Source: Candidatus Woesearchaeota archaeon
GTDB lineage: Archaea; Nanobdellota; Nanobdellia; Woesearchaeales; ARS49
Length of the DNA: 64,000 nt
Assembly (NCBI GenBank): GCA_030750765.1
Contig: JASMHM010000001.1
Coordinates: 334,696 to 398,695, forward strand
Direction of reading: 5' to 3'
Part shown: positions 1-17,711 of the stretch, piece by piece
How the letters are laid out: each line of letters starts with the position of its first letter
Position numbering within the stretch: position 1 is the stretch's first letter
The notes under the pieces: model-generated
What the model was told of the DNA's origin: nothing
What the model saw: only the letters and a program-made list of their open reading frames with translations
Database searches by the model: none
Made by a program: the position numbers and the translations under genes

Positions 1-669
1 CCACAAGAGCAAGTACACCACACAATAGAAGACAAACAACAATCCCAGATTGAATTTGGTGGCTAATGCCAAACCCGACACGACACCCAACCAAACCCAC
101 CACTTTTTGGTATCAAATTTCATGGCAAACGCAAACAACACCGCTCCTGCCGTGAAAAAAAAGCTCGTAGGCGCGTCCAAGCTCACAGTCTTGTGAAACT
201 GGACAAAGTTAGGTAATAGTATCAGAATCAGACTTGCTAATATTCCTGTAGACTGGCTGAAAAAGTACGCACAAAACAAGTACGCCAACACCACGGTGAG
301 GCCCGCAAGTAAGACGCTCGAATACCTTCCAGGATTGTACAATTCTCCTGGAAGCCTATACGGTTTCAAGCCTCCAGCAATGGTGACCTTACGCTCGTAC
401 TCACTCATGCTAAAGATGAAAGGAGCAAAAAACAAGGCGTGCAAGTATTTGCCTACCGCAGGGTGTTCCTTGAACATCACCCACCGTTCATAACTCCCAT
501 TCATCTCCGTAACACCCTCATACGTGTTCACGGCCAACCTTAGATAATTGTGCTCGTCAAACATGCCCCCTGCACCGTTCAGATCGTACAGTCGAGAACC
601 GACCATGAACAAAAATAGCAGAACAGCTAGGATAATATGGATTCGCTTCTTCGAAAGGGTGAGCTTCAC
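1..669 (-). CDS. GT-C fold membrane glycosyltransferase (PMT/ArnT-like), N-terminal part; gene runs off the left edge
   Basis: Minus-strand ORF open from position 1. Translation gives TM1 (KKRIHIILAVLLFLF) then a loop-1 acidic motif MFDEHNYL resembling the DE motif of PMT/ArnT GT-C enzymes, followed by further TM helices. Start assigned to GTG at 669 (alternative ATG 616). The ORF track omits it because it is incomplete. Confidence 0.45.
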   Translation of the reverse strand, partial: MKLTLSKKRIHIILAVLLFLFMVGSRLYDLNGAGGMFDEHNYLRLAVNTYEGVTEMNGSYERWVMFKEHPAVGKYLHALFFAPFIFSMSEYERKVTIAGGLKPYRLPGELYNPGRYSSVLLAGLTVVLAYLFCAYFFSQSTGILASLILILLPNFVQFHKTVSLDAPTSFFFTAGAVLFAFAMKFDTKKWWVWLGVVSGLALATKFNLGLLFVFYCVVYLLLW

Positions 670-720
670 GATAGATACCTGTTCCGTGGGCTTTATAAGG
701 ATTTCCTCACTTCCCCCGTC
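670..720. promoter_or_regulatory. divergent intergenic region with palindromic TATA-like box (ctttataagg, ~692-701) serving both flanking genes
   Basis: The TATA-like element lies 20-30 nt from both the GTG at 669 (minus) and the GTG at 721 (plus), the typical archaeal leaderless spacing. Confidence 0.35.
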
Positions 721-1710
721 GTGATTGTCTCACGTACACCGTTAAGGATAAGCTTCTTTGGAGGAGCTACAGACTTCCCAGGATACTTTGAAGAGCATGG
801 CGGCAAAGTGCTAAGCACCGCCATCTCACATTTTGCATACGTAACCGTACGTAAAGAAAAATTCTACGGCAAGACCATCCTGAACTATATGAAGAAAGAA
901 ACCGTAGAAAAAGTTGACGAAATCCAAAACGAAAGGTTGCGAGAATGCATGAAGTTAATAGATATCAACTTTCCTGTCGAACTATCCTTACAAAGTGACG
1001 TTCCCTCTACCGGCACAGGCCTAGGAGCAAGCTCAGCCTTCCTAGTAGGAAGCCTAAATGCTCTATGGTTTGCCAAACATGGCACATTACTCAGCAAGTA
1101 TGACCTTGCCAGCATGGCGTGTGATCTAGAAATAAACAAATTAGGAGAACCCATAGGCTGGCAAGACCAGTTTGCCTGCGCTTTTGGCGGAACAAACACC
1201 ATAGACTTCAACAAAGAAGGAGCAACCGTAGCACCCGTCAAAACAACCACGGAAAATCTAAAAATGCTCGAATCACAATTACTAGCCTTCTACACCAGCC
1301 GAGGAAGGCAGGCAGGAAACGTGCTTACCGAACAGAAAGAGAAAATAGGTGTGAACCTTTCAGCATTAGGCGAAATGAAGGCACAAGTAGCAAAAGGAGA
1401 ACAACATCTTAGAAACGGAGATATTGATTCCTTTGGTAGTTTGCTCCACGAAGGATGGCTGTTGAAAAAATCGTTAGCTTCTGGAATTTCTGACAAAGAC
1501 ATTGATGATCTGTATAACGACGCAAAAACTGCAGGAGCCACGGGCGGCAAGATCGCTGGAGCAGGCGGAGGCGGCTTCCTACTCCTCCACGTGCCTGTAG
1601 CACACCAAAATAGTGTCAGACAAGCCATGAGAGAAAAAAGTCTTAAAGAACTACCCATCAAGTTCGAAACAGAAGGAACAAAAATATATCACGTTGGAGA
1701 AACGTTCTAA
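721..1710 (+). CDS. GHMP-family sugar kinase (heptose-7-phosphate kinase HddA-like)
   Basis: N-terminal RTPLRISFFGGATD, GHMP motif PSTGTGLGASSAF, C-terminal GGKIAGAGGGGF. The track ORF begins at ATG 637 but that overlaps the divergent gene. GTG 721 gives the canonical N-terminus and sits 20-28 nt after the TATA. Confidence 0.75.
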   Translation: MIVSRTPLRISFFGGATDFPGYFEEHGGKVLSTAISHFAYVTVRKEKFYGKTILNYMKKETVEKVDEIQNERLRECMKLIDINFPVELSLQSDVPSTGTGLGASSAFLVGSLNALWFAKHGTLLSKYDLASMACDLEINKLGEPIGWQDQFACAFGGTNTIDFNKEGATVAPVKTTTENLKMLESQLLAFYTSRGRQAGNVLTEQKEKIGVNLSALGEMKAQVAKGEQHLRNGDIDSFGSLLHEGWLLKKSLASGISDKDIDDLYNDAKTAGATGGKIAGAGGGGFLLLHVPVAHQNSVRQAMREKSLKELPIKFETEGTKIYHVGETF

Positions 1711-2729
1711 GCAGGCATAGCGCCAGGAATTTCCTTAGCATCAACAACACTAGGATTCTTGTACAAGAACTTAATCAGTTCATACTGCTGTTGGTTAGCA
1801 AATACTGCAACATTAATCTTATCTGTTTTTTCGCTGCTAGCAATCAAGGTTTCGATATCACTACTCTCATCCCATTGATCTCCCTGTCCACATCTTACAA
1901 CGCAACCTGCATGTTGTGCAATCACAAATCCAGGAGAGTCGTAGGCTCCTTGCCCAAAGAGAATGTGGAAGTCGTGCGTCCCATCGGCAACCTTACAAGC
2001 CATTAGTGATGCACTTCCTGAACCTGGCTTGACATCACACGCGCCGTACGGTCGGGATTTGGATCCCACGGGGAAGGTGACCTCTCTAAAGAGTCCTTTC
2101 AAACGGTTGTTCACCTCAGGCATCCTTTCTCGGTCCGAAGAAGGCATATACGCACAACCATGCATATCTCCAAGGAAAGAAGTAATCGAAGGCGATAAAG
2201 CGAAACGAACTCGCTGCATAGAAGGCGGCGATCCTGCCGAGGTTGGGGAAGGAACAAGGACTGTTCTCTCTACGAAAGGCGCCCGGTCAAATTCATGGAT
2301 AAAGTGATCAAGGGTACCTGGCTGATACACACTAACAAACGGAACAGACGAATCTTCGGAGTGCACCAGAGCGACAACCGAACTCCAGTACCGACCGCCC
2401 AATTCTGCCACTGCCGTGCCATCCCTCGGATCTACAAGCCAGAAAGGACTGCCAGGTTTGTTTTCCAACTCTTCACCAACAAACCCGAAAGAGGGATTGA
2501 TTTGCCACAACTGTTCCCTTAGATCAGTTTCTATCGCAACATCGATGCTCGAACTGTAATTAGCCTCTGTGTCATGCAGGCCTCCAAACTGGCCCCAATA
2601 CTCTTTCACAACACACAGATGTCGTATCAGTGCCTCTTGGTTGATTTGTTGCATGGTTGTCATTAAACTGATCAAAGCACCGGAGGAATATAAAGGCGAT
2701 CCTCTACCTTTATAAGTAGAGATAGACAA
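1707..2729 (-). CDS. inositol monophosphatase/FBPase-family phosphatase
   Basis: IMPase signatures FVGEE and WLVDPRDGT (DPxDGT metal-binding motif), and a C-terminal WD-containing segment. Confidence 0.55.
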   Translation of the reverse strand: MSISTYKGRGSPLYSSGALISLMTTMQQINQEALIRHLCVVKEYWGQFGGLHDTEANYSSSIDVAIETDLREQLWQINPSFGFVGEELENKPGSPFWLVDPRDGTAVAELGGRYWSSVVALVHSEDSSVPFVSVYQPGTLDHFIHEFDRAPFVERTVLVPSPTSAGSPPSMQRVRFALSPSITSFLGDMHGCAYMPSSDRERMPEVNNRLKGLFREVTFPVGSKSRPYGACDVKPGSGSASLMACKVADGTHDFHILFGQGAYDSPGFVIAQHAGCVVRCGQGDQWDESSDIETLIASSEKTDKINVAVFANQQQYELIKFLYKNPSVVDAKEIPGAMPA

Positions 2730-2737
2730 ATAAACAC

Positions 2738-3934
2738 GTGAAAGCAGTCATTCTTTGTGCAGGAGAGGGGAGTAGAATGGGCCTTGTGGGAGAGCAGATT
2801 CCCAAGCCTTTACTCAAGCTTAATGGCAAATCCATGATCCATAGATGGTTTGATTATTTCAAAAAACACAGCATTAACGAGTTCTACATCAACACGTTTC
2901 ATCTCGCAGAAATGGTAGAGGAAGAGATCGGAGACGGCTCAAAATACGGAGTGAAGGTGCACTGGTACCGACAACCAGGAAAGATGGGCACCGCCAGCAT
3001 CCTCAAAGAGTTCAAGTTAGACGAACAGGACGAACCATTTGTTGTTGTGTTTGGGGACAGTCTAACAACACTTGATCTACAACCCATCCTTGACCATCAC
3101 AAAGAGAAAGGAGCAGACGTCACACTTCTAGGAAGAAAACACCACGAGCCATGGAGAAAAGGAGTTATCACAATTGATGGCGACCAAAGAATAACCCACA
3201 TGGTCGAAAAACCGGATCTAAAAGAGTTAGCGCCAAACCAATACTGCGTTTCTAGCATAGCCATAATCAACCCGGATATGATTAAGCATGTTGACAGCGA
3301 TCAAGAATGGTTAGGCATGGAGTTTTACCCTAAGCTTTTGGAAAGAAAATGCCATCTGACCTTCAAAGAACGCCCAAAGAACGATAACGCAGGCGATGTA
3401 AACAACACAGAAAACTTCTACAAACTAGACGCGTACCTAAGAGAAAAAGAAGGCAGCCCAAACGTGGAGGTAGCCATGATTGATAGAGATGGAACGCTCA
3501 ACGTTCGCTCCCCACAAGGAAGCTATGCCTTAGTTGACTTCCCCTTCAAACTCTTCCCCTTCGCCCTAGACAGCTTAAAAAAACTAAAGGAAGCCAAGAT
3601 CAAAAATTTACTGGTAACAAACCAAGCTTGCATTGGCAAGGGTTACCTCACGCGAGAAACCTTAGACAAGACCCACCAAGAAGCCTTTGGAGAATTGTTC
3701 GATGACTACTACGTGTGCGAACACATACACGGAACATGCACGTGCAGAAAACCCTGGCCAGACATGCTCAAAAAAGCCATCAAAGACCACAACATCGACA
3801 TCCAGAAAGCAGTCTTCATCGGCGACACCGAGTACGACGAAGCTGCTGCACTAGCGGTAGGCGTTAGATTCATCAAGGTGGACGACAAGTTTACGTTCGC
3901 GGACGCAGTTAACCAAATTCTTAGTGAAGATTAA
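2738..3934 (+). CDS. bifunctional sugar-1-phosphate nucleotidyltransferase (N-term) / GmhB-like HAD histidinol-phosphatase-family phosphatase (C-term)
   Basis: N-terminus MKAVILCAGEGSRM is a nucleotidyltransferase G-loop. C-terminal half has DRDGTLN and a Zn-binding CxH...CTCRKP motif typical of D,D-heptose-1,7-bisphosphate phosphatase GmhB. GTG start, TATA 22 nt upstream. Confidence 0.7.
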   Translation: MKAVILCAGEGSRMGLVGEQIPKPLLKLNGKSMIHRWFDYFKKHSINEFYINTFHLAEMVEEEIGDGSKYGVKVHWYRQPGKMGTASILKEFKLDEQDEPFVVVFGDSLTTLDLQPILDHHKEKGADVTLLGRKHHEPWRKGVITIDGDQRITHMVEKPDLKELAPNQYCVSSIAIINPDMIKHVDSDQEWLGMEFYPKLLERKCHLTFKERPKNDNAGDVNNTENFYKLDAYLREKEGSPNVEVAMIDRDGTLNVRSPQGSYALVDFPFKLFPFALDSLKKLKEAKIKNLLVTNQACIGKGYLTRETLDKTHQEAFGELFDDYYVCEHIHGTCTCRKPWPDMLKKAIKDHNIDIQKAVFIGDTEYDEAAALAVGVRFIKVDDKFTFADAVNQILSED

Positions 3935-3974
3935 TAAGCCATGCCCTACCTATTAGGAGATACATGATTTTTGT

Positions 3975-5108
3975 GTGAACGAAGCGTATGCAACCTTGCG
4001 TAGTGACAATAGCGTTCACGTGAGAATGGTCTTTCCTGACAACAAAGTAAAAGCAGACGGACTGCGTTTCAAGGCATGCCCTGACGTTGGCGTCCAAGTA
4101 CACGCAGATTTGCTTGCAAAACAAGGCACAGGCAAGGAAGGAAGAATTGCCTTCCCGCACTCACCCTTCAAACCTGCCAGCGCGGGTGGCGTTATTTTCC
4201 TGGACAAGGGAGATACTGCCCTAGGCAGTCTGAGAAACATCAGACCGAGATCTCACACCGTTTATCAATCATGGAATGGCGGCTTTCCTACCAAGGAAGA
4301 AGGCGTCTACAGCGCAGAAGCGTTGGCAATTACGGGCGAAAGAGAGTTCAACGAAGAGATAGTCCTTGTAACCAAAGACGGTGCATTGATTGTAAACAAG
4401 CACGACACTCGCGGATATGCACAACACCGAGCAAAAATGGCAGGTCTCGAATTTGGAGATCGCATTGTACAAGTAGAACCGCAATATGTAACCGTTGGCG
4501 ACACGCTAACTGTGGAAGACCAATCAGGAAGCCCCATCTACAGAACAAACGATTGGAACGTGGAATGGATGCTAGAACAAACAAGCAGCCTCAACTGCGT
4601 AAAGCTGGTCGTATACGATCTTCCTTCAGACGAAGTATTTCCTCTAGATTTAGAGGGTAAGGAAAGTCCTTACGAAAGATTCAACTTACCCGTTGTCCTA
4701 CTCAAACGAGAACAAGTAGACGGGGAGCGTTTTGGCGCAGTCCTTGAGGATTATGTAGCCTGGAACGCAGATCTCTCATCCGGCAAAGCAGAGTTTAGAC
4801 GCTATCAGATGCCTGAACCATGCGAAGGTCCCGATAGAACTCCAACAAAAGGAATGGTGTACGCACCAGAAGATGGATTGTCAAAAGCAATATGTAGCAT
4901 GGGCTGGAAAACGCGGACAGACAGGGGAACGCTAGACCATTGGCTAGAAGTCGAGCTTTGGAAAGAGGGGAAAATGCTCGAACAGCAGACCTGTGTGCTC
5001 ACCCAAAAAGACGTTCCCTTAGACGCACTTCTTTGCCCAGAAGCGAGCGTAGACACCACGCGAATGCAGGGTTGGGTACCTCGATGGCTCGAAGAGAGCC
5101 CCTACTGA
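3975..5108 (+). CDS. hypothetical protein (377 aa), no recognisable motifs
   Basis: Long ORF in coding-dense context with a GTG start. Embedded in the heptose gene cluster. Confidence 0.5.
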   Translation: MNEAYATLRSDNSVHVRMVFPDNKVKADGLRFKACPDVGVQVHADLLAKQGTGKEGRIAFPHSPFKPASAGGVIFLDKGDTALGSLRNIRPRSHTVYQSWNGGFPTKEEGVYSAEALAITGEREFNEEIVLVTKDGALIVNKHDTRGYAQHRAKMAGLEFGDRIVQVEPQYVTVGDTLTVEDQSGSPIYRTNDWNVEWMLEQTSSLNCVKLVVYDLPSDEVFPLDLEGKESPYERFNLPVVLLKREQVDGERFGAVLEDYVAWNADLSSGKAEFRRYQMPEPCEGPDRTPTKGMVYAPEDGLSKAICSMGWKTRTDRGTLDHWLEVELWKEGKMLEQQTCVLTQKDVPLDALLCPEASVDTTRMQGWVPRWLEESPY

Positions 5109-5147
5109 GTCCATAAACTTTAAAAACCAACCTCTTAGAATTTGCTT

Positions 5148-6146
5148 ATGAAATGCGTTGTTACAGGCGGGGCAGGATTCATCGGAAGTGCTATTGCTAA
5201 GCGATTAGAAAAAGACAATCATGACGTTGTCATCGTGGACGACTTCTCCGCAGGGTATGAAACCAACCTCAAAGGATTTTCCGGAGAGATAATCAAAGCA
5301 TCAGTCGTAGAAGCAGACAAGGTAGCTCCTGCAATTAAAGATGCAAACCTTATCTTCCATCTTGGAGCCATGAACGCCTTACCAGACTGCAGCAACGACA
5401 TGGTCGCAACCATGGAAGTAAATGTTAAGGGAACTGCTTCTTTGCTAGACATGGCAAGAAGAACCGCAGCAAAAGACTGCAGATTCGTCTTCACCTCTTC
5501 ATCCGCAGTGTACGAAGGAAGCGACAAGCTACCCAACACAGAAAGCGATCAACCAAACCCACACTTAGCATACGCAATATCCAAACTCCAAGGAGAATTC
5601 TTATGCAGAAGCTTCCACAAAAGTTTCGGACTACCCTACACTATAATCCGACCCTTCAACGTCTACGGCGAAGGCCAAGATTTTAGGCGCGAACAACCCC
5701 CAGTCATGTGCGCGCTAGCCATACCCTTACTGCAAGGCAAACAAGCAACCATTTATGGAGATGGCACCCAAGCAAGAGACTTTATCCATGTCGAGGACAT
5801 GGCAGAACTATTTGTCGTAGCAGCAACCCACCCAAAAGGAGCAGGACAAGCCTTCAACGGCGGCGTGGGAAAAAGTGTTAACATCAACGACATCTACAAA
5901 ATGATCTGCTCAGAACTCGGCACAGACAAAGAACCCATCTACGCACCAGCCCAAGGCTTGTTTGACAAGTATCCTGCATTGAAAGAAGGCAACTTTGTCT
6001 TCCGAGATGAAGCAGTAACGCACGAAAGCCTCAAAACAACCCAAGCAGACACCACAAAAACAAAAGACCTACTCGGCTGGGAACCCAAGATCAGCATGGA
6101 AGAAGGAGTTAAACGGAGTGTAGAGTACGTCAAACAGAACCTATGA
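5148..6146 (+). CDS. NAD-dependent epimerase/dehydratase (SDR extended family)
   Basis: MKCVVTGGAGFIGS Rossmann motif and a YxxxK-type segment. ATG 5148 preferred over the track's TTG 5142; TATA ~22 nt upstream. Confidence 0.8.
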   Translation: MKCVVTGGAGFIGSAIAKRLEKDNHDVVIVDDFSAGYETNLKGFSGEIIKASVVEADKVAPAIKDANLIFHLGAMNALPDCSNDMVATMEVNVKGTASLLDMARRTAAKDCRFVFTSSSAVYEGSDKLPNTESDQPNPHLAYAISKLQGEFLCRSFHKSFGLPYTIIRPFNVYGEGQDFRREQPPVMCALAIPLLQGKQATIYGDGTQARDFIHVEDMAELFVVAATHPKGAGQAFNGGVGKSVNINDIYKMICSELGTDKEPIYAPAQGLFDKYPALKEGNFVFRDEAVTHESLKTTQADTTKTKDLLGWEPKISMEEGVKRSVEYVKQNL

Positions 6147-6820
6147 TAACACTCGTCATCCCTGCATACAACGAACAAAATAGACTCCCAGACACGGTCA
6201 AGGCGTTTGCCAACTATTTTCCAAAAATAGACATCCTCATCGTGCCTAATGGTTGCACCGACAACACAGAAACCGTGGCACAAGAGCTAGCAACCAAGTA
6301 CAACAACGTAAGAACATGGGCAACCCCTACAGGAGGAAAAGGATTCGCAGTAAGAGAAGGATTCAAACGAGCCAAGCACGATCTGGTAGGCTTTGTGGAT
6401 GCAGACCTAGCAATAACACCCGAAGAGTTCGCCAAACTCCTCCCCTTTGCCAAAGAGAACGACGTCGTCATAAGCTCAAGATGGCTCAAAGACAGCAACG
6501 TAACCCAAAAAGAACCCGCCCAAGTACGCTTTGCCGGAAGGATTTTCAACCTCATGGTGCGAACCTGGTTCGGACTAAAAATATCAGACACCCAATGCGG
6601 AGCAAAAATATTCAAAACCGACTTAATGCGAAAAATCCTACCCAAATGCATTGTTAACAAAATGGCATTTGACGTAGAATTCTTGTACCACGCCAAAAAC
6701 TTCGGCGCAACCATAAAAGAAGTCCCCATCACCTGGAAGCACAACCCAGAAGAGTCCAAAACCGGCGTGTTTAAAACCGGAATAAAAATGATAGGACAAC
6801 TAGCAAGTATACGAAAATGA
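6143..6820 (+). CDS. glycosyltransferase family 2 (dolichyl-phosphate sugar synthase-like)
   Basis: VIPAYNE N-terminus, DxD (VDADL) and QCGAK motifs. Overlaps the upstream gene by 4 nt. Confidence 0.8.
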   Translation: MITLVIPAYNEQNRLPDTVKAFANYFPKIDILIVPNGCTDNTETVAQELATKYNNVRTWATPTGGKGFAVREGFKRAKHDLVGFVDADLAITPEEFAKLLPFAKENDVVISSRWLKDSNVTQKEPAQVRFAGRIFNLMVRTWFGLKISDTQCGAKIFKTDLMRKILPKCIVNKMAFDVEFLYHAKNFGATIKEVPITWKHNPEESKTGVFKTGIKMIGQLASIRK

Positions 6821-9799: not shown

Positions 9800-9850
9800 T
9801 ATACACTGAGCCATACACAAGCTTTTAAGCCATCATCTGAAAGGCGCAAT

Positions 9851-10900: not shown

Positions 10901-11604
10901 AAGAAATCAACACAAACATATACCCAACAGAGGAAATCAGCGTGGAGCCACTAGCTCCAATAGAAGAAGCAGAAATAGACACGGACGTCTTTGTACGCAC
11001 CTTCCTAAGCGAAGGACTACAACATCTCGGCAGTTTAATGATGAGCGAAGCCAACAACCGAGGTCTAAGCCTAGCACTAAAAGCACTCGACAGGTGCAGA
11101 CGCGACAAAAAAAGAATATTTCTCATAGGAAACGGCGGCAGCGCAAGCACCGCACAACACCTAACCAGCGACCTAAACAAATGGGCCACAGGAGACGGAC
11201 AAGCACCCGTGAGAGCCATCTGCCTGAATGACAACATGTCCAGCATGACTGCGCTAACCAACGACGACGGCTGGGAAAACGTGTACGAAGCACAACTAAA
11301 AAATCTAGAAGCCGAAGCAGGCGACGTTATCATCGCAATATCCGTCCACGGCGGAAAGGGATCAGACGCTGCCGGCGTGTGGAGTCAGAATCTAACCAAA
11401 GCGATCGCCAATGTCAAAGAACATGGAGGTTATGCCGTAGGCATCACCGGCTTTGATGGTGGCGCAATGGCAGAATTATGCGACGCCCACATCAACGTAC
11501 CCGCAGAAAGCACACCGCATGTAGAAGGTCTGCACCTTGTAGTCACACACTGCATCGTTGACGGTCTTAGAGTGATGGCGATGGGCAACTACCAGGAAAA
11601 GTGA
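10891..11604 (+). CDS. SIS-domain sugar-phosphate isomerase (phosphoheptose isomerase GmhA-like) with acidic N-terminal extension
   Basis: SIS motif IGNGGSASTAQH, about 190 aa of SIS core plus a ~45 aa acidic leader. Confidence 0.65.
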   Translation: MAIEEINTNIYPTEEISVEPLAPIEEAEIDTDVFVRTFLSEGLQHLGSLMMSEANNRGLSLALKALDRCRRDKKRIFLIGNGGSASTAQHLTSDLNKWATGDGQAPVRAICLNDNMSSMTALTNDDGWENVYEAQLKNLEAEAGDVIIAISVHGGKGSDAAGVWSQNLTKAIANVKEHGGYAVGITGFDGGAMAELCDAHINVPAESTPHVEGLHLVVTHCIVDGLRVMAMGNYQEK

Positions 11605-12035
11605 AAATTTCCAGCCCAGAATTTGGTAACATGCAGGATATTCCTGCAAAATTTACCTGTCAAGGGGAAGACATCAACCCCCCTTTGAAAATCGAGGACG
11701 TTCCTGAGCATACTGAAAGCTTGGTTCTCATCATGGACGATCCTGACTCTCCCACAGGAACGTGGGATCATTGGGTGGTGTGGAACATTGCACCTTCAAC
11801 AAAAGAAATTCCAGAACATTCAAAGCCAGGCGTGGAGGGTATGAACACTTGGCCCAAGCTAGGCTATGGCGGACCGTGTCCTGCATCAGGAAAGCACCGC
11901 TACGTCTTCACCCTGTACGCTCTAGACACCACCTTAGATCTTCCGGCTACGTCCACAAAGAAAGACGTTGAAAGCGAGATGGAACACCACATTCTAGAAA
12001 AAACGGAACTTATTGGTTTGTTTGAGAAGAGCTAG
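11601..12035 (+). CDS. PEBP-family protein (YbhB/YbcL-like)
   Basis: DDPDSPTGTWDHW and GKHRYVFTLYALD motifs of phosphatidylethanolamine-binding proteins. GTG start. Confidence 0.7.
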   Translation: MKISSPEFGNMQDIPAKFTCQGEDINPPLKIEDVPEHTESLVLIMDDPDSPTGTWDHWVVWNIAPSTKEIPEHSKPGVEGMNTWPKLGYGGPCPASGKHRYVFTLYALDTTLDLPATSTKKDVESEMEHHILEKTELIGLFEKS

Positions 12036-12568: not shown

Positions 12569-13333
12569 TTAGTCTTTCTTGAAGCCCTGTTTGCGTTCGT
12601 AATACTTCAGATATTTGGCCACTTGGTAGAAGCCACTGCACAAGCTGTAGAAAAGTCCTCCAAAACCGCGTCGCCACAAGCCTCGGAACACGTACCAGTA
12701 TCCAAATTCTATCCAAGGTCTTACCGCAACCTGACCAATAAGACGCGGCATGTTGAGAGGGACGCTATCCGCCATTCTTCTCCCTTCAATGTTAGTATGA
12801 TGGTTAAACCGGTTGATGTAGTCCTCTGCATCAGCGATGCTATCATGGTAGAGCGTGCCTGCTAGTGTTCCTACTTGTCCATCCATATACACCTTCTCAT
12901 GTACTGCGTGCCTGAACTCTCCCTTGCTCTTCCGGTACAGGCGAAGAATAGGAATGGTATGCACATACGTGTTGAGGAAAGTGAAATCCTTACGATTTAT
13001 GTTGAATCCCACAAATTGTTCTTGGTTAATGGCATGACCTATCGCGTCAAACAATGTCTTATCAACATACTCATCCGAATCCAAAGAAAAGACCCAGTCA
13101 TGCTTGGCTTTGGCCACGGCAAGATTCTTGAGCTTTGCTCCAGTCACCGTACGGTTTTTGTCATCAAAGATAAACACCTTTTTCGTGTACTTTTTGGCTA
13201 TCTTGACCGTGCCATCCTTGCTCTGGCTATCCCACACGATGATGTCATCTGAAAGCTTCTTCACAGCTTCCAAACACTTCTTGATAGTGCGCTCTGAGTT
13301 CTTTGTTAAGATAACTATACTTACCGGCATCAT
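12569..13333 (-). CDS. glycosyltransferase family 2
   Basis: SIVILTKNSE N-terminus, DSQSKDGT and a DxD (LDSDE) motif. Confidence 0.8.
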   Translation of the reverse strand: MMPVSIVILTKNSERTIKKCLEAVKKLSDDIIVWDSQSKDGTVKIAKKYTKKVFIFDDKNRTVTGAKLKNLAVAKAKHDWVFSLDSDEYVDKTLFDAIGHAINQEQFVGFNINRKDFTFLNTYVHTIPILRLYRKSKGEFRHAVHEKVYMDGQVGTLAGTLYHDSIADAEDYINRFNHHTNIEGRRMADSVPLNMPRLIGQVAVRPWIEFGYWYVFRGLWRRGFGGLFYSLCSGFYQVAKYLKYYERKQGFKKD

Positions 13334-14050: not shown

Positions 14051-14719
14051 ATGGTCAAATACTACACCAGCGAAGAGATTCTCAAGAAAAAGGATGAGAT
14101 AACCGCTGCGCTGGCCAGAGAGAACTGCATTCGCGGCAAATTCTTCGAGATGATCCAAGCCAGGATCTCTGAGCTCCCAAAAACAGCCTCCATCCTAGAA
14201 CTAGGACCTGGAGCAGGATATGCTCTAGATGCCTTGAACCAAGCCGGATTCTCCAACCTCCACAACGTGGACATCGATGACTACCTGCAATTTAAGGAAT
14301 TCAAGAAACGTTTCAAAAAGTGCGATCTCAACACACAAAAACTGCCGTACAAAGACAACACCTTCGATTGCGTGCTAGCATTAGAAGTATTTGAGCACCT
14401 AGAGAACTTTCCTTTTGCATTGAGAGAATGCGCAAGAGTGCTCAAAAAAGGAGGGCTCTTAGTCTTTTCGCGACCCAACGGCTGGAGCATCTACAACAGA
14501 ATACGCTACCTCAAAGGAGCCAACACTACGGTGGTTACGCCAGGCAACAACCACATCAACGACATGAGCAGGAACCTTTTGATGAAACTTACTGAAAAAT
14601 ACTTCAAATTTGAAAGGATCATCGCAGAACCTGCAGTTGTCCCCTTAATACACATACCGATCAAAGGAAGAGTGTTGTTTTCTGACCATCTATGCTTTGT
14701 TTTCAAGAAAGCTTTTTAA
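14051..14719 (+). CDS. class I SAM-dependent methyltransferase
   Basis: Motif I ILELGPGAGY, post-I acidic residue, and VLKKGGLLVFSRPN. TATA ctttatatag 26 nt upstream. Confidence 0.75.
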   Translation: MVKYYTSEEILKKKDEITAALARENCIRGKFFEMIQARISELPKTASILELGPGAGYALDALNQAGFSNLHNVDIDDYLQFKEFKKRFKKCDLNTQKLPYKDNTFDCVLALEVFEHLENFPFALRECARVLKKGGLLVFSRPNGWSIYNRIRYLKGANTTVVTPGNNHINDMSRNLLMKLTEKYFKFERIIAEPAVVPLIHIPIKGRVLFSDHLCFVFKKAF

Positions 14720-14733
14720 GGGCTTGACAAACG

Positions 14734-16116
14734 ATGCAGGCAATGGATACTATCTTAGTCTTGTGTACTGAAGGCGCAAGCTATCGCAATTTTGTCAACG
14801 CAGGCGTAATTGATGAACTAAAAAAGAAAGCAAAGATAGTGCTCGTCTGTGCAGACTGGATGGAGGAACACCTCAGAAAAAAGTATCCGGATCTTGCTCT
14901 AGAAATCGTATACGAACCCGGAAAAGCAGAGAGCATTGCAGACCATATTCGAATGACCAAGACGATCTACCGCGCTTCTGTCTGGCCAGACATTCAGACA
15001 AGTACCTTCAAGATTATTCGAGGAAGAACCATCAAAGAGCAACCCATCAAGTTCTGGATACGAAGAGGAATGGCCATTGCCTCAAGACCTGCAATAATCC
15101 AGGCAGGTCTGCGAAAGATTGCATGGCTGTGGCCAAAAAAACCAGTCAAAGAATTGTTCCAAAAGTATGACATCACCAAAGTTTTTTCCACCAACGTCCT
15201 CTGTCTTGACCATGTTCCCTACGCCGAATACGCACTCTGGAAGAACATACCTCTTGTTGCTGCGGTGCTGAGTTGGGACAACATGACCAGCAAAGGAACG
15301 CCCATGTACCTACCTAACCGATTACTCATGTGGGGACCAAAACAAAAAAAAGAGTGTATAAATCTGCACAACCTTCCAGAAAATATCTTGAGGGAGTGCG
15401 GAGCAGCACAGTTCGACTGTTACTTCAAGAACGACATACCCACAAAGTCAGAAGTGTTCAGCAAACTCAAGATACCCAAAAACGCCAAAGTGATAACCTA
15501 CGTTGGAGGAATTCCTGCCAACGTCATGGGCATGACTGCAGAAAACGAAAAAGTCATCGTAGACACCATACTCCAAGGAATGGATGATGGAAGCCTTCCA
15601 AGTGAAGCCATTCTTGTTATCCGCCCACACCCTGGCGTCAAGGACTGGGAACAGTACCAGACCTTTGAAAAACATCCAAAAGTAAGAATGAACTATCCTG
15701 CATGGTTCTTGCAGGGCAAAGAACCACCAAAAAGTTGGAATCCCAACTGGGAAGACCACAAATTCATGGGAGCCTTGATGAAGTACAGTAGCGTGGCTAT
15801 AACCCCCGGAGGAAGTGCCACCCTTGATGCAGCCTGCTTTGACAATCCTGCGGTAAACGTGTACTTTGACACGCCACCAAGACCTTATCTCTTTAGCCTG
15901 AAGAGCCACTGTGACTTTGCTCATCTGATATACCTACGAGAGTTCAGAGCCACCCCCTTTGTGGAGAGCACCGACGAACTATTAGAAGAAGTCAAGGACG
16001 GCTTTGAAAAACCAGCCAAATACAAGGAAGGCAGGAAGAAAATGTTGGACTCCATTATAGGAGCGCAAGACGGAAAAAGTGCGGTTCGCACTGCAGAAGA
16101 AGTTCTGGACGCATAG
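14734..16116 (+). CDS. putative TagB/TagF-like glycerophosphotransferase-family or GT-B-like enzyme
   Basis: IRPHPG and YSSVAITPGG...FDNPAVNVYFD segments resemble the PF04464-type catalytic region. This is a weak by-eye call. Confidence 0.4.
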   Translation: MQAMDTILVLCTEGASYRNFVNAGVIDELKKKAKIVLVCADWMEEHLRKKYPDLALEIVYEPGKAESIADHIRMTKTIYRASVWPDIQTSTFKIIRGRTIKEQPIKFWIRRGMAIASRPAIIQAGLRKIAWLWPKKPVKELFQKYDITKVFSTNVLCLDHVPYAEYALWKNIPLVAAVLSWDNMTSKGTPMYLPNRLLMWGPKQKKECINLHNLPENILRECGAAQFDCYFKNDIPTKSEVFSKLKIPKNAKVITYVGGIPANVMGMTAENEKVIVDTILQGMDDGSLPSEAILVIRPHPGVKDWEQYQTFEKHPKVRMNYPAWFLQGKEPPKSWNPNWEDHKFMGALMKYSSVAITPGGSATLDAACFDNPAVNVYFDTPPRPYLFSLKSHCDFAHLIYLREFRATPFVESTDELLEEVKDGFEKPAKYKEGRKKMLDSIIGAQDGKSAVRTAEEVLDA

Positions 16117-16165: not shown

Positions 16166-16897
16166 ATGATGCCAAGATTCTTTATCGACAGCAGCGACAT
16201 CAACGAGATTCGCACTGCCTATGAAACCGGTCTAGCCTTTGGTGTTACTACAAACCCACTAATCATTCTCAAGAACAATCCTGATCTAAGCATGCGCGAT
16301 GCCATACAAAAAATCTTAAGCACAGTACCAAACATCCCAATCAGTGTCCAAGTGACCGAGCAGGACCCAAGAAAGATGGTCCAGCAAGGCAAGGAATACC
16401 ATTCCTGGGGCCCAGAAAGGATCGTTGTCAAAATCCCTATGGGTGTTGTGCATAATGGAACGCCAAGCACGTATGCGATCAAAGAACTAGCAAGAGTGGG
16501 CATCCCTGTCAACGTGACAAGCTGTATGACCCGAGACCAAGCCTACGCCGGCATCGCTGCTGGAGCCCGCTACCTTTCCTTGTTCTGGTGCAGAATAAAA
16601 GATTCTGGCGGCAACCCAGAAGCAGAAACAAGAGCTACCAGAGAGATGATCCAAAAAGGCTTCCACTTCTCAGAACCACAACCCAAAGAAATCATTGTGG
16701 GCAGCTTAAGAGAGCCAGAAAACGTCTTCCAGGCCATGCAAGCAGGAGCACACATCATCACCATACCCTTCCTAAAGAAAGACGGTTCACCCCTGTTTGG
16801 CGCTGTCGTAGATCAGATGATCAACCACGAACGAACCGTAAGCACGAACGAAGAGTTCTTTGAAAAGGCAAAATCCATCCGCCAAGACGCAACTTAA
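16166..16897 (+). CDS. transaldolase/fructose-6-phosphate aldolase family (Fsa/TalC-like)
   Basis: FFIDSSDINEI, GVTTNP and VKIPMG motifs. Size matches the short transaldolase subfamily. Confidence 0.75.
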   Translation: MMPRFFIDSSDINEIRTAYETGLAFGVTTNPLIILKNNPDLSMRDAIQKILSTVPNIPISVQVTEQDPRKMVQQGKEYHSWGPERIVVKIPMGVVHNGTPSTYAIKELARVGIPVNVTSCMTRDQAYAGIAAGARYLSLFWCRIKDSGGNPEAETRATREMIQKGFHFSEPQPKEIIVGSLREPENVFQAMQAGAHIITIPFLKKDGSPLFGAVVDQMINHERTVSTNEEFFEKAKSIRQDAT

Positions 16898-16922
16898 TAA
16901 GTCTTCTCCTACCTACTATCCC

Positions 16923-17711
16923 ATGGCTAAAGTGCCCATAAGTATCTGTCTCGTAGCTCGCAATGAAGAAGAGTACATCGAGCGCTGCTTGAAGAGTGTC
17001 CATGGATGGGCAAACGAAATCATACTAGTAGACGGTCAGAGCACGGACAAAACTGCTAAAATAGCTCGCAAATACGCCAAAGTATTCGTAAAAGAGAACG
17101 ATCCTTCACATCACGTGAACAAACAATGGACCTTTACCAAAGCAAGAAACAAGTGGGTCTTCTCTTTAGATGCAGATGAAGAGTTAAGCCCTGAGTTGAA
17201 GAAAGAAATCGAAGAAATCATCAAGAACGACACACCCCATAACGGTTTTTACGTTCCTAGAGTCAACATACTGCATGGCGAGCCATTAAGATGGGATTGG
17301 CCAGGGAACATGTTACGCTTGTACAGAAAAGGAAAAGAATCCTTCAAGGGAGAACGATTGCACGAGTACATCCACATCGATGGCAGCGTTGGGCAACTAC
17401 AAGGAAAGCTCATCCACTTTGGCTGGTGGAGGGGAATGCACCAATACCTCTTCAAGATGAACAATTATACAACGTTTGACGCACAAAAACGAGTTGAGTT
17501 GGGACAAACCTACACGCCCTGGATGTTAATCAAGGGCTGTGCCAACCAGATCATCTATCTCGTTGCAAAAAAGATAGCCTTCAACAGGTTCCCGTACGGA
17601 CTCTTCTTTGTGGTAACAGACGTGTTCAACGAGTTTTCATTATTCTTCAAGTACCGCGAGTTCAAGAAGGTCAAAGGACAGCATACGAAAGCGGTGAACA
17701 AGTACGTTTAG
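16923..17711 (+). CDS. glycosyltransferase family 2
   Basis: ISICLVARNEE, DGQSTDKT and LDADEE motifs. ATG 16923 lies 22 nt after a TATA-like ttaataag. The track start 16860 overlaps the transaldolase gene. Confidence 0.75.
   Translation: MAKVPISICLVARNEEEYIERCLKSVHGWANEIILVDGQSTDKTAKIARKYAKVFVKENDPSHHVNKQWTFTKARNKWVFSLDADEELSPELKKEIEEIIKNDTPHNGFYVPRVNILHGEPLRWDWPGNMLRLYRKGKESFKGERLHEYIHIDGSVGQLQGKLIHFGWWRGMHQYLFKMNNYTTFDAQKRVELGQTYTPWMLIKGCANQIIYLVAKKIAFNRFPYGLFFVVTDVFNEFSLFFKYREFKKVKGQHTKAVNKYV

What the first reader, a model, noticed from the sequence alone, without database searches (positions are those of the whole stretch)
637..17711. Candidate NDP-D-glycero-D-manno-heptose pathway with archaeal gene fusions and a transaldolase feeder
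A SIS isomerase (GmhA-like), two GHMP kinases (HddA-like), a fused nucleotidyltransferase+GmhB-type phosphatase (HddC-GmhB) and a short-type transaldolase are co-clustered. The transaldolase could supply sedoheptulose-7-P, the GmhA substrate. Established knowledge: the Aneurinibacillus S-layer pathway to GDP-D-glycero-alpha-D-manno-heptose uses GmhA, HddA, GmhB and HddC. Inference: this locus makes an activated heptose. It may then be tailored by the neighbouring epimerase, Gfo/Idh/MocA and SDR oxidoreductases and the Cys-less dehydrogenase, for a surface or N-glycan. An IMPase-family phosphatase sits antisense at the start.
Basis: partly seen in the sequence, partly recalled or inferred. Interest (0 to 1): 0.6.

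Follow-up and report, generated by a model that had tools for sequence, protein, structure and literature searches.

The report
Transaldolase-linked higher-sugar nucleotide pathway, archaeal
The genes are real, but they belong to a widespread, undescribed nine-gene set whose enzyme list matches the eight-carbon sugar (octose) route of the antibiotic lincomycin better than the ordinary heptose pathway; which sugar is made is still untested.

Summary
The SIS, kinase and phosphatase parts are closest to GmhA, HddA and GmhB. Public pipelines already give them heptose names.

The plain heptose reading fits poorly:
- **Transaldolase (TAL).** It is not a casual feeder. In related loci from many phyla, 17 of 18 with the SIS gene also carry a TAL.
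- **Nine-gene set.** TAL, SIS, GHMP kinase, HAD phosphatase, nucleotidyltransferase, epimerase, Cys-to-Thr sugar dehydrogenase, SDR and Gfo/Idh/MocA often lie within about 9 kb on one strand.
- **TAL lineage.** Cassette TALs fall outside the housekeeping clade and differ at positions invariant there.
- **SIS subfamily.** It has Asp for the GmhA Glu, Glu for Gln, Val for Thr, and an inserted phosphate loop.

This enzyme list equals the lincosamide GDP-octose set (LmbR/N/P/K/O/M/L/Z), with an SDR in place of the aminotransferase. My best reading is an NDP-octose-type sugar for a surface glycan (0.5). A canonical heptose pathway remains a live rival (about 0.27). Lmb sequences could not be obtained, so direct orthology is untested. 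The window TAL also lacks the catalytic Glu (Gln-Thr-Phe triad), which is unexplained.

The parts
637..1710 (+). GHMP sugar kinase 1, a divergent HddA-like paralogue specific to this clade
   Evidence: Pfam PF00288/PF08544. NCBIfam HddA model scores 145 bits against a cut-off of 600. 34% identical to kinase 2. Related loci have only one such kinase.
1707..2663 (-). IMPase/FBPase-superfamily phosphatase-like protein (318 aa as called; the ORF runs to 2729). Specific to this clade.
   Evidence: Pfam Inositol_P 31.5 bits, 1.6e-7. GEE and DPRDGT motifs are visible in the translation. JGI names it 'fructose-1,6-bisphosphatase/inositol monophosphatase family'. Found in 0 of 80 related loci.
2738..3934 (+). 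Fusion of a sugar-1-phosphate nucleotidyltransferase (residues 1-~205) with a GmhB-type HAD-IIIA phosphatase (residues ~240-398). These correspond to LmbO/HddC and LmbK/GmhB.
   Evidence: Pfam hits. NCBIfam HAD-IIIA TIGR01662 scores 68 bits, above its 44.6 cut-off, and the protein hits GmhB models. PDB: GmhB entries 4PNH/2GMW, HddC 5XHW at 2.5e-11, UTP-G1P uridylyltransferase 8X7S at 2.3e-24. The two parts are separate genes in all other loci.
3975..5108 (+). Orphan 377-aa protein of unknown function, specific to this clade
   Evidence: No Pfam or NCBIfam hit. Named hypothetical in all sources. Found in 0 of 80 related loci. The AF2 single-sequence model has pLDDT 34.7 and is unusable.
5142..6146 (+). 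Extended-SDR NDP-sugar epimerase/reductase (LmbM-like role)
   Evidence: PF01370 2.2e-55. Scores are similar on the GalE, HldD and RmlB models and all fall below cut-off. A YxxxK motif is present and there is no dehydratase D-E pair. A homologue is present in 24 of 25 long related loci.
6143..6820 (+). GT2 glycosyltransferase (DPM1-like size)
   Evidence: PF00535 8.9e-27. Overlaps both neighbouring genes by 4 bases.
6817..7809 (+). Gfo/Idh/MocA NAD(P) oxidoreductase (LmbZ-like role)
   Evidence: Pfam hits. PDB matches are sugar 2- and 3-dehydrogenases. Present in 23 of 25 long related loci, normally adjacent to the Thr-type dehydrogenase and the SDR.
7806..9011 (+). Nucleotide-sugar dehydrogenase homologue with Thr for the catalytic Cys (LmbL-like role). 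Predicted to perform a single two-electron oxidation.
   Evidence: Three UDPG_MGDP_dh domains. TIGR03026 scores 258.7 bits, above its 189.8 cut-off. The motif is GFGGGTLGRD, and all 120 best database relatives also have Thr. The window's second UGDH (26547-28250) keeps Cys.
9008..9799 (+). Classical SDR ketoreductase
   Evidence: adh_short 2.8e-43. Present in 24 of 25 long related loci.
9851..10900 (+). GHMP sugar kinase 2, the cassette kinase (HddA/WcbL/LmbP-type)
   Evidence: Pfam hits. HddA model scores 164 bits against a cut-off of 600. PDB: 3K85 at 1.8e-44, 4N3O at 1.4e-37, WcbL at 8e-37. 41-42% identical to cassette kinases of L007, L009 and L012.
10891..11604 (+). SIS ketose-phosphate isomerase, the 'type A' subfamily related to GmhA (LmbN-like role)
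   Evidence: SIS_2 32.8 bits. gmhA TIGR00441 scores 86.9 bits against a cut-off of 209. Alignment to B. pseudomallei GmhA gives E68->D, Q175->E and STSGKSPN->SVHGGKGSDAAGVWSQN. All 120 best relatives share the loop insertion.
11601..12035 (+). PEBP/YbhB-family protein, translationally coupled to the SIS gene. Specific to this clade; role unknown.
   Evidence: PF01161 4.4e-43. Found in 0 of 80 related loci.
12569..13333 (-). GT2 glycosyltransferase
   Evidence: PF00535 4.4e-17.
14051..14719 (+). Class I SAM methyltransferase
   Evidence: PF08241 1.1e-19.
14734..16116 (+). 460-aa protein with only faint glycosyl/glycerophosphotransferase similarity
   Evidence: PF04464 19.6 bits, below cut-off. 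BFO_1060 glycosyltransferase domain 40 bits against a cut-off of 200. No PDB sequence hit.
16166..16897 (+). Short transaldolase-family protein of a cassette-linked lineage (LmbR-like role), with an atypical Gln62-Thr118-Phe140 triad
   Evidence: TAL_FSA 99 bits. PDB alignments show SVQV aligned to SAEV. Gln occurs only in this clade, in 5 of 121 sequences. Nearest relatives are cassette-linked. In the NJ tree it lies outside the housekeeping clade.
16923..17711 (+). GT2 glycosyltransferase (the ORF could start at 16860)
   Evidence: PF00535 8.2e-18. Gene callers start it at the position equivalent to 16923.

Best explanation
The locus is the marine Woesearchaeota version of a widespread, tightly linked sugar-nucleotide module. 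The module builds an NDP-activated higher-carbon aldose from a ketose phosphate that its own transaldolase makes.

**Proposed steps (all inferred)**
1. The TAL (16166-16897) transfers a C3 unit from fructose-6-P or sedoheptulose-7-P onto an aldose phosphate. The acceptor is most probably ribose-5-P, which would give octulose-8-P, as LmbR does.
2. The GmhA-related but distinct SIS isomerase (10891-11604) converts the ketose phosphate to the aldose phosphate.
3. The HddA-type GHMP kinase (9851-10900) phosphorylates C1.
4. The GmhB-type HAD domain (C-terminal half of 2738-3934) removes the distal phosphate.
5. The fused nucleotidyltransferase (N-terminal half of 2738-3934) makes the NDP-sugar.
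6. The epimerase (5142-6146), the Cys-less (Thr) nucleotide-sugar dehydrogenase (7806-9011), Gfo/Idh/MocA (6817-7809) and the SDR (9008-9799) then tailor the side chain. The chemistry would be of the oxidation, dehydration and reduction type that LmbM/LmbL/LmbZ perform, ending in a ketoreduction instead of a transamination.
7. The GT2 and other transferases of the island put the sugar on a surface or protein glycan.

**What is shown and what is inferred**
- Shown: the gene families, their active-site differences from GmhA and from housekeeping TAL, and their conserved co-occurrence.
- Inferred: the substrates, the carbon number and the tailoring chemistry.
For: 1. **Gene families.** Confirmed.
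2. **TAL neighbours.** The closest relatives of the window TAL outside its own clade sit in NTP-transferase/GHMP/SIS/HAD/TAL operons. These come from Polyangiaceae (L007, L009), Pendulispora (L008), Chloroflexota (L012), other archaea (L089, L173) and a cultured Curtobacterium (L175).
3. **Control.** Of 80 GTDB loci with short TAL homologues, only the 2 that rank among the most similar to the window TAL carry the cassette. The other 78 do not.
4. **Metagenome survey.** The scan was started from the Thr-type dehydrogenase. In the 25 loci of at least 12 kb, homologues were counted as follows: EPI 24, SDR 24, GFO 23, GHMP 20, SIS 18, TAL 17, NTP 17, HAD 16. Of the 18 loci with SIS, 17 also have TAL. 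The nine genes are often contiguous on one strand within about 9 kb, in shuffled order (L109, L138, L150, L164).
5. **TAL lineage.** Cassette TALs lie outside the single clade formed by 75 housekeeping short TALs. They differ at positions that are 96-100% invariant there: L119, F121, P139, D145, G151, H186, and G227->T in 35 of 35.
6. **SIS subfamily.** Both cassette SIS subtypes replace the GmhA Glu68 by Asp and Gln175 by Glu, and carry a 6-9 residue insertion in the phosphate loop. The canonical GmhA encoded next to the cassette in L008 keeps the GmhA pattern.
7. **Match to the lincosamide pathway.** The conserved enzyme list equals the published octose pathway: R transaldolase, N isomerase, P kinase, K phosphatase, O nucleotidyltransferase, M epimerase, L dehydrogenase, Z oxidoreductase (PMC12945683; PMC4351081). 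LmbR makes octulose-8-P from ribose-5-P plus F6P or S7P (PMC5854111).
8. **Nearest non-lincosamide homologues.** Those reported for CcbN and CcbP are from Sorangium, the order where TAL cassettes are common.
9. **Cys-less dehydrogenase.** It suits oxidation of a secondary C6-OH, which only heptoses and longer sugars have (inference).
Against: - No Lmb or Ccb sequence could be obtained, so orthology to LmbR, LmbN and LmbL is untested.
- The best curated profile and PDB matches are heptose enzymes (GmhA, HddA/WcbL, GmhB). Public pipelines name the genes accordingly.
- Two GT9 (heptosyltransferase-family) genes lie 8-10 kb upstream of the window.
- A DPANN archaeon with a reduced pentose-phosphate pathway might truly need a TAL to obtain sedoheptulose-7-P.
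- No aminotransferase (LmbS equivalent) is conserved.
- As far as I know, and in the library searched, octoses have not been reported from cell-surface glycans.
- The window TAL has Gln for the catalytic Glu and no compensating Tyr, so its activity is uncertain.
- The TAL tree is a simple neighbour-joining tree without support values.
Confidence: 0.5

Rival explanations
1. This is a canonical NDP-D-glycero-D-manno-heptose pathway, as the first reader and public annotation say. The SIS is a divergent GmhA acting on sedoheptulose-7-P. The kinase, phosphatase and nucleotidyltransferase act as HddA, GmhB and HddC. The TAL only boosts or provides sedoheptulose-7-P. The dehydrogenase, Gfo and SDR enzymes remodel C6/C7 of the heptose.
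For: - Best NCBIfam and PDB matches are GmhA, HddA/WcbL and GmhB.
- JGI names agree with the heptose reading.
- GT9 genes lie upstream.
- Heptoses are common in surface glycans, whereas octoses are not known there (own knowledge).
- A DPANN genome may lack another route to S7P (inference).
Against: - All equivalog cut-offs are missed by wide margins.
- The SIS lacks the residues reported as fully conserved or catalytic in GmhA.
- Characterised GDP-heptose clusters, which use GHMP-type kinases, have canonical GmhA and no TAL (PDB 1TK9; M. tuberculosis GmhA in PMC7705670; own knowledge).
- The TAL is near-obligate in the cassette, including in Myxococcota. GTDB loci of other members of that phylum carry ordinary housekeeping-type TALs without a cassette (L028, L030, L044, L054), though not shown for the same genomes. 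Pendulispora has a complete ADP-heptose set with its own GmhA right beside the cassette.
- Cassette TALs differ at positions invariant in housekeeping TALs, which is unexpected if they catalyse the same reaction.
Confidence: 0.27
2. The pathway has the same architecture, but the TAL uses another acceptor. The product would then be neither D-glycero-D-manno-heptose nor the lincosamide-type octose. It could be a heptose of other configuration, a deoxy or amino higher sugar, or a nonose.
For: - The TAL and SIS active sites are remodelled relative to the known enzymes.
- Two SIS subtypes and several deep TAL lineages exist, which leaves room for different substrates.
- The tailoring sets vary between loci.
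Against: There is no positive evidence for any specific alternative. The only characterised TAL-dependent pathway of this architecture gives an octose.
Confidence: 0.15
3. In this archaeon the TAL no longer takes part, either because it is inactive (Glu->Gln) or because it is a bystander. The ketose phosphate would come from elsewhere, for example from an aldolase plus the IMPase/FBPase-like bisphosphatase at 1707-2663.
For: - The Gln-Thr-Phe triad lacks both known acid/base residues.
- In the window the TAL lies 4.5 kb from the SIS gene, behind genes on the opposite strand.
- A clade-specific FBPase-family phosphatase and a second kinase are present.
Against: - The TAL keeps the Schiff-base Lys, Asp8, Thr118, and Arg143/Arg182 (the residues I expect to bind the phosphate). 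It is conserved at 64-100% identity within the clade, so it is under selection.
- It stays inside the island in every contig seen.
Confidence: 0.08

Closest known systems
Lincosamide (lincomycin/celesticetin) GDP-octose pathway: LmbR, LmbN (isomerase domain), LmbP, LmbK, LmbO, then LmbM, LmbL, LmbZ/CcbZ, LmbS
   Same: The list of enzyme families is the same: a short transaldolase, a GmhA-like SIS isomerase, a GHMP kinase, a GmhB-like HAD phosphatase, a nucleotidyltransferase, a GalE-like epimerase, a nucleotide-sugar dehydrogenase homologue and an NAD(P) oxidoreductase, all in one cluster. The transaldolase is a dedicated pathway member in both.
   Different: - No aminotransferase is present; a classical SDR is conserved instead.
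- The product goes to a glycan (GT2 and flippase genes) rather than to an antibiotic. There are no LmbT/V/C/D-type genes.
- The host is an archaeon.
- NTP-transferase and HAD are fused here.
- Sequence-level orthology is untested.
- That LmbZ belongs to Gfo/Idh/MocA, and whether LmbL has Cys or Thr, could not be checked here.
[quoted passage not shown]
   Same: The four core families and the order of reactions are the same. The kinases are closest to HddA/WcbL, and the HAD domain has the GmhB zinc-loop motif.
   Different: - The SIS lacks the GmhA Glu/Gln/Thr pattern and has a loop insertion.
- A dedicated TAL is linked.
- Tailoring is by a Cys-less dehydrogenase, Gfo and an SDR. The known heptose tailoring uses 4,6-dehydratases, cupin epimerases and C4 reductases (own knowledge; PMC10680097 was listed but not read).
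Short (subfamily 4) transaldolases and fructose-6-phosphate aldolase (TacTal, B. subtilis Tal, T. maritima Tal, E. coli FSA)
   Same: The fold family and size are the same. The Schiff-base Lys, Asp, Thr and the two Arg conserved across short TALs (expected phosphate binders) are kept.
   Different: Cassette TALs differ at about 29 positions that are conserved (at least 80%) in housekeeping enzymes. The window clade additionally has a Gln-Thr-Phe triad, which is neither the transaldolase pattern (Glu-Thr-Phe) nor the FSA pattern (Gln-Thr-Tyr).
UDP-glucose 6-dehydrogenase family
   Same: The three-domain architecture is the same, and the protein passes the NDP-sugar dehydrogenase subfamily model.
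   Different: The catalytic Cys is Thr in the window protein and in all 120 nearest relatives. The four-electron oxidation to a uronic acid is therefore not expected.

Membership tests
GmhA (D-sedoheptulose-7-phosphate isomerase) | Reaches a curated equivalog score (TIGR00441 209 bits; PRK13936 276 bits) | tested here: not met
   The window SIS scores 86.9 and 100.3 bits. Cassette SIS proteins of other loci score 51-108 bits. The canonical GmhA domain of L008 scores 203-220 bits.
GmhA (D-sedoheptulose-7-phosphate isomerase) | Catalytic and Zn-binding Glu66/68 and Gln173/175, plus phosphate-loop Ser-Thr-Ser...Ser, with Thr122 and Gln173 reported as fully conserved (PMC7705670) | tested here: not met
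   Glu->Asp, Gln->Glu and Thr->Val, with an 8-9 residue insertion in the loop. The two His residues are kept.
GmhA (D-sedoheptulose-7-phosphate isomerase) | Closer to GmhA than to KpsF/GutQ, GlmS or PHI-type SIS proteins | tested here: met
   Only GmhA and DiaA models and structures are hit.
HddA/WcbL D-glycero-D-manno-heptose-7-phosphate kinase | GHMP kinase closest to the heptokinase clade | tested here: met
   PDB: 3K85 at 1.8e-44, 4N3O (C. jejuni) at 1.4e-37, WcbL at 8e-37, against fucokinase and galactokinase at about 1e-15. The best NCBIfam model for both kinases is HddA.
HddA/WcbL D-glycero-D-manno-heptose-7-phosphate kinase | Reaches the HddA equivalog cut-off (600 bits) | tested here: not met
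   The two kinases score 145 and 164 bits. Cassette kinases elsewhere score 151-185 bits.
GmhB-type HAD-IIIA phosphatase | HAD-IIIA core motifs and the Cys/His zinc loop, with similarity to GmhB | tested here: met
   TIGR01662 scores 68.1 bits, above its 44.6 cut-off. The protein hits GmhB models and PDB entries 4PNH, 2GMW and 3L8E. DRDGT, TNQ and CEH...CTCRKP are visible in the sequence. The GmhB equivalog cut-offs are not reached.
HddC (heptose-1-phosphate guanylyltransferase) | Specific similarity to HddC rather than to other sugar-1-P nucleotidyltransferases | tested here: inconclusive
   The HddC model scores 47.6 bits against a cut-off of 300. UTP-G1P, ManC and MurU-type models and structures score better. 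The nucleotide used cannot be told.
Lincosamide-type NDP-octose pathway | A dedicated transaldolase encoded with the isomerase, kinase, phosphatase and nucleotidyltransferase | tested here: met
   This holds in the window. It also holds in 17 of 18 related loci with SIS and in L007, L008, L009, L012, L089, L092, L173 and L175.
Lincosamide-type NDP-octose pathway | Tailoring set of epimerase (M), nucleotide-sugar dehydrogenase homologue (L) and NAD(P) oxidoreductase (Z) | tested here: met
   The genes are at 5142-6146, 7806-9011 and 6817-7809. They are conserved together in 23-24 of 25 long loci. This is a match at family level only.
Lincosamide-type NDP-octose pathway | C6 aminotransferase (LmbS/CcbS) | tested here: not met
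   There is no aminotransferase in 637-17711 and none among the families conserved across 32 loci.
Lincosamide-type NDP-octose pathway | Sequence orthology to LmbR, LmbN, LmbL and the others (ABX00607-ABX00615) | not testable with these tools
   No Lmb or Ccb sequence could be retrieved. The papers hold none. None was recognised among the best hits.
Lincosamide-type NDP-octose pathway | The TAL makes octulose-8-P from ribose-5-P, and the product is an eight-carbon sugar nucleotide | not testable with these tools
   This needs enzyme assays or glycan analysis.
Transaldolase (EC 2.2.1.2), short type | Schiff-base Lys together with the Glu-Thr-Phe catalytic-water triad | tested here: not met
   Lys89, Thr118 and Phe140 are present, but the Glu is Gln62. 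Tyr, the FSA alternative, is absent.
UDP-glucose/GDP-mannose 6-dehydrogenase | Catalytic Cys that forms the thiohemiacetal/thioester | tested here: not met
   The residue is Thr245 (GGGTLGRD). The same holds in 120 of 120 nearest relatives.

The most novel reading that the evidence does not exclude
Eight-carbon aldoses (octoses, perhaps 8-deoxy or 6-modified forms) activated as NDP-sugars may be common building blocks of cell-surface glycans. The candidate hosts are DPANN and Nitrososphaerota archaea, Chloroflexota, Myxococcota and Actinobacteria; the tailoring dehydrogenase subfamily also occurs in CPR bacteria, where its gene neighbourhood was not examined. They would be made by a conserved TAL-SIS-GHMP-HAD-NTP cassette plus a module of Thr-type dehydrogenase, SDR and Gfo. 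The lincomycin sugar pathway would then be a specialised offshoot of this primary-metabolism module.
Probability: 0.4. Interest if true: 0.78.

Novelty: new variant of a known kind. Interest (0 to 1): 0.6.

Why it matters
If the cassette makes an octose-type sugar nucleotide, three things follow:
- A sugar class known only from a few antibiotics would turn out to be a widespread surface component of uncultivated archaea and bacteria.
- The lincosamide sugar pathway would gain an evolutionary source.
- Thousands of genes now auto-annotated as 'sedoheptulose-7-phosphate isomerase', 'heptose kinase', 'transaldolase' and 'UDP-glucose 6-dehydrogenase' would need new names.

Even if the product is a heptose, the work defines three unrecognised enzyme subfamilies:
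- cassette TALs;
- SIS types A and B with an Asp/Glu active site;
- Cys-to-Thr nucleotide-sugar dehydrogenases.

It also defines a conserved nine-gene module. This module can be tested in cultured hosts: Curtobacterium sp. BRD11 (locus L175) and Pendulispora rubella (locus L008).

Tried and rejected
**Attempts to obtain Lmb/Ccb protein sequences for direct comparison**
- The key JACS and PNAS papers are not held.
- The PLoS One supplements give only accessions, percent identities and primers.
- The single genome-contig scan returned mostly housekeeping TALs and no Streptomyces.
- A profile search of 1.84 billion representatives with cassette TALs, followed by picking actinobacterial-looking hits, did not find LmbR. 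It did find a myxobacterial-type cassette fragment (L174) and the Curtobacterium cassette (L175).

**Other searches that led nowhere**
- PDB holds no LmbR, LmbN or CcbZ catalytic domain, as judged from hits to the window proteins.
- tblastn of a cassette TAL against plasmids listed hits annotated as fsa/tal or unannotated; their neighbourhoods were not examined.
- AlphaFold2 of the orphan 377-aa protein without an alignment gave pLDDT 34.7, so no fold search was run.
- Literature searches for TAL-linked octose or higher-sugar glycan clusters found nothing beyond lincosamides.

**Readings considered and rejected**
- The SIS as KpsF, GlmS or PHI: there are no such hits.
- The kinases as mevalonate kinases or galactokinases: those matches are much weaker.
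- The 7806-9011 protein as a true UDP-glucose 6-dehydrogenase: it has no Cys.
- The TAL as an ordinary housekeeping enzyme: context, tree position and signature residues all argue against it.

Full report
**Observation**

- Two GHMP kinases lie at 637-1710 and 9851-10900.
- An NTP_transferase+HAD fusion lies at 2738-3934.
- An extended-SDR epimerase lies at 5142-6146, a GT2 at 6143-6820 and a Gfo/Idh/MocA oxidoreductase at 6817-7809.
- A three-domain UDP-glucose/GDP-mannose dehydrogenase homologue lies at 7806-9011 and a classical SDR at 9008-9799.
- A SIS protein lies at 10891-11604 and a PEBP protein at 11601-12035.
- Further GT2 genes, a methyltransferase and a short TAL/FSA-family protein (16166-16897) follow.
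- On the minus strand at 1707-2663 is a weak IMPase/FBPase-family gene.

The genes from 2738 to 12035 abut or overlap by 4 bases, so they look like one operon. The identical locus is present in at least 23 public contigs from marine metagenomes and MAGs. NCBI assigns the proteins to Candidatus Woesearchaeota archaeon. The glycan island is larger than the finding.
- Upstream of the window are two GT9 genes, a flippase, another nucleotidyltransferase, an epimerase-methyltransferase fusion, a Gfo gene and a PMT gene.
- Downstream to about 32.3 kb lie a NeuB-SAF-xylose-isomerase-like fusion, a CMP-transferase and a second, Cys-containing UGDH, among other genes.

**Family-level identity of the core**

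- The SIS protein hits only GmhA and DiaA models and structures.
- Both kinases hit the HddA model best. Kinase 2 matches heptokinase structures (3K85 at 1.8e-44, C. jejuni 4N3O, B. pseudomallei WcbL) far better than fucokinases or galactokinases.
- The HAD domain has the GmhB motifs and matches GmhB structures.

JGI's pipeline already calls these genes sedoheptulose-7-phosphate isomerase, heptose-7-phosphate kinase, heptose-1,7-bisphosphate phosphatase and transaldolase. The heptose reading is therefore the default annotation rather than a discovery.

**Why the default reading is unsatisfactory**

*The transaldolase.* Outside its own marine clade (64-100% identity), its best relatives in 5.8 billion proteins are transaldolase-family proteins at or below about 42% identity, most of them about 219 residues long. 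Nearly every genomic context I opened held the same cassette of nucleotidyltransferase, GHMP kinase, SIS_2, HAD and TAL.
- The loci are L007 and L009 (Polyangiaceae), L008 (Pendulispora rubella), L012 (Chloroflexota) and L089 (another archaeon).
- One further TAL sits in a Wzz/Wzy polysaccharide cluster on a contig that ends too early to judge.

As a control, 80 loci from GTDB species genomes that encode short TAL homologues were screened with the window proteins. Only the two cassette loci, ranked 1 and 4 by similarity to the window TAL, have GHMP, SIS and NTP genes nearby. The other 78 do not.

A neighbour-joining tree puts 75 housekeeping-type TALs in one clade. The 35 cassette-linked ones, including the window clade, fall outside it in several deep lineages. 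The tree has no support values.

Cassette TALs also differ at positions that are 96-100% invariant in the housekeeping set, in window numbering: Leu119, Phe121, Pro139, Asp145, Gly151, His186, and Gly227->Thr in 35 of 35. An enzyme that merely made more sedoheptulose-7-P would not be expected to change these.

*The SIS protein.* Aligned with B. pseudomallei GmhA and with the canonical GmhA domain that Pendulispora encodes right beside its cassette, the cassette SIS proteins fall into two subtypes, A and B. The window protein is type A. The Pendulispora cassette copy is type B, and the Curtobacterium cassette copy looks type-B-like by motif.
- Both subtypes have Asp for Glu68 and Glu for Gln175.
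- Both carry a 6-9 residue insertion in the phosphate-binding loop. In the window, STSGKSPN becomes SVHGGKGSDAAGVWSQN.
- PMC7705670 describes Glu66/68 and Gln173/175 as the Zn-bound acid/base pair. It reports Thr122, Ser126 and Gln173 as fully conserved in GmhA orthologues.
- In the window protein, Thr122 is Val and Gln173 is Glu.
- All 120 best relatives of the window SIS share the loop insertion. They include proteins from Nanoarchaeota and Nitrososphaerota.
- One Nitrososphaerota context (L173) again shows SIS-HAD-TAL together with GHMP, NTP and two epimerases.
- Cassette SIS proteins score 51-108 bits on the gmhA equivalog model, whose cut-off is 209. The canonical L008 domain scores 203.

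*The 'Cys-less dehydrogenase'.* The window protein has Thr at the catalytic Cys position, as do all 120 nearest relatives (GGTLxRD). The second UGDH in the window keeps Cys.

A metagenome scan with an alignment of this Thr-type subfamily returned 80 loci. In the 25 loci of at least 12 kb, tblastn with the window proteins found the following:

| Gene | Loci with a homologue (of 25) |
|---|---|
| Epimerase | 24 |
| SDR | 24 |
| Gfo/Idh/MocA | 23 |
| GHMP kinase | 20 |
| SIS | 18 |
| TAL | 17 |
| Nucleotidyltransferase | 17 |
| HAD | 16 |

- Of the 18 loci with SIS, 17 also have TAL.
- In many loci the nine genes are contiguous on one strand within about 9 kb, in varying order (L109, L138, L150, L164). 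L092 is another full example.
- De novo clustering of all ORFs from 32 loci recovered the same families and no conserved aminotransferase.
- The second kinase, the IMPase-like gene, the 377-aa orphan, PEBP and the NTP+HAD fusion are peculiar to the window clade.

**Comparison with known systems**

The conserved enzyme list is, family for family, the sugar branch of lincosamide biosynthesis.
- The members are LmbR transaldolase, LmbN isomerase domain, LmbP kinase, LmbK phosphatase, LmbO nucleotidyltransferase, LmbM epimerase, LmbL dehydrogenase and LmbZ oxidoreductase (PMC12945683; PMC4351081).
- LmbR makes octulose-8-phosphate from ribose-5-P with F6P or S7P as donor (PMC5854111).
- LmbM, LmbL, CcbZ and CcbS convert GDP-octose to GDP-lincosamide. 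From memory of the 2020 PNAS paper, they do this by 6-epimerisation, 6,8-dehydration, 4-epimerisation and 6-transamination.
- The archaeal module lacks the aminotransferase and instead keeps an SDR. This would fit reduction of a keto intermediate instead of amination (inference).
- A dehydrogenase without the Cys can only perform a two-electron oxidation. That suits a secondary C6-OH, which exists only in heptoses and longer sugars (inference).
- The PLoS One supplement lists Sorangium proteins as the nearest non-lincosamide homologues of CcbN and CcbP. Sorangium belongs to the order in which TAL cassettes abound.

This is indirect. I could not obtain any Lmb or Ccb sequence, so orthology is untested.

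**Weighing the readings**

Two points favour a pathway distinct from the canonical heptose pathway. The TAL-SIS coupling is near-obligate across phyla that can be expected to have an ordinary pentose-phosphate pathway. Both enzymes also have remodelled active sites. The lincosamide precedent makes octulose-8-P the most economical guess.

Several points favour heptose:
- The best curated matches are heptose enzymes.
- GT9 genes lie upstream. They are weakly WaaC-like and are not part of the module elsewhere.
- A reduced DPANN metabolism might need a TAL to obtain S7P.
- No octose is known from surface glycans.

My estimates are as follows:

| Reading | Probability |
|---|---|
| Octose-type pathway | about 0.5 |
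| Canonical heptose pathway | about 0.27 |
| Another higher sugar | about 0.15 |
| TAL non-participating in this archaeon | about 0.08 |

**Unexplained**

The window-clade TAL has Gln62 where all 116 other relatives and all solved transaldolases have the catalytic Glu. It retains Phe where FSA has its catalytic Tyr. This Gln-Thr-Phe triad matches neither known solution (PMC13259622). The Schiff-base Lys, Asp, Thr and two conserved Arg (expected phosphate binders) are kept. The protein is conserved within the clade, so it is probably functional, but its chemistry is open.

**Verdict**

The heptose interpretation is only partly supported. The locus is best described as a new variant of the GmhA/HddA/GmhB/HddC-Lmb type of higher-sugar nucleotide pathway, and it belongs to a widespread nine-gene module that I did not find described. 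Cultured carriers exist for testing: Curtobacterium sp. BRD11 (L175: epimerase-TAL-GHMP-HAD-SIS-carbamoyltransferase-GT2, then Gfo, SDR and epimerase) and Pendulispora rubella (L008).

Noticed in passing
window 20109-28250: A second sugar pathway lies next to the finding. It comprises a 644-aa NeuB + SAF + xylose-isomerase-like TIM barrel (AP_endonuc_2) fusion, a histidine phosphatase, a CMP-sugar-type cytidylyltransferase, a Gfo/Idh/MocA gene, an APH-family kinase, an epimerase and a CBS + UDP-glucose dehydrogenase fusion that keeps its Cys. It looks like a nonulosonic or ulosonic acid route with unusual fusions.
   Followed up: partly
window 32327-33709 (-) and 34679-34795 (+): A TnpB/IS605 OrfB-type gene (OrfB_IS605 + Cas12f1-like TNB) sits at the end of the glycan island. 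About 1 kb beyond it is a solitary 5S rRNA gene (Rfam 73.6 bits). There are no tRNA genes in the 64 kb.
   Followed up: no
window 16166-16897: The transaldolase-family protein has a Gln62-Thr118-Phe140 triad, a hybrid of the transaldolase and FSA patterns. The triad is confined to this marine Woesearchaeota clade.
   Followed up: partly
L090 1-2218 (8-10 kb upstream of window position 1): Two GT9 (LPS heptosyltransferase family) genes occur in an archaeal genome, beside a flippase and a 762-aa epimerase + C-methyltransferase-like fusion. GT9 is unusual in archaea.
   Followed up: partly
window 7806-9011 and loci L093-L172: The Cys-to-Thr 'UDP-glucose dehydrogenase' subfamily also has an invariant G-x-W-H-L-G in place of the usual NAD-binding GxGxxG. 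It has an invariant YKPGTNTLRRS motif as well.
   Followed up: partly
L008 1-3732: Pendulispora rubella encodes a canonical ADP-heptose set directly next to its TAL cassette. The set comprises GT9, a PfkB kinase, HAD and a GmhA fused to an HldE-type adenylyltransferase. This GmhA-adenylyltransferase fusion is itself uncommon.
   Followed up: no
window 1-22000: There is a strong excess of A over T on the coding (+) strand. AT skew is 0.19-0.39 where genes are on +, and near 0 or negative where they are on -.
   Followed up: no
window 3975-5108, 18660-20078, 49578-51230, 53926-55281: Several large ORFs (377-550 aa) have no Pfam hit. The 377-aa protein has a degenerate Nudix-like stretch (GEREFNEEI), noted by eye only.
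   Followed up: partly
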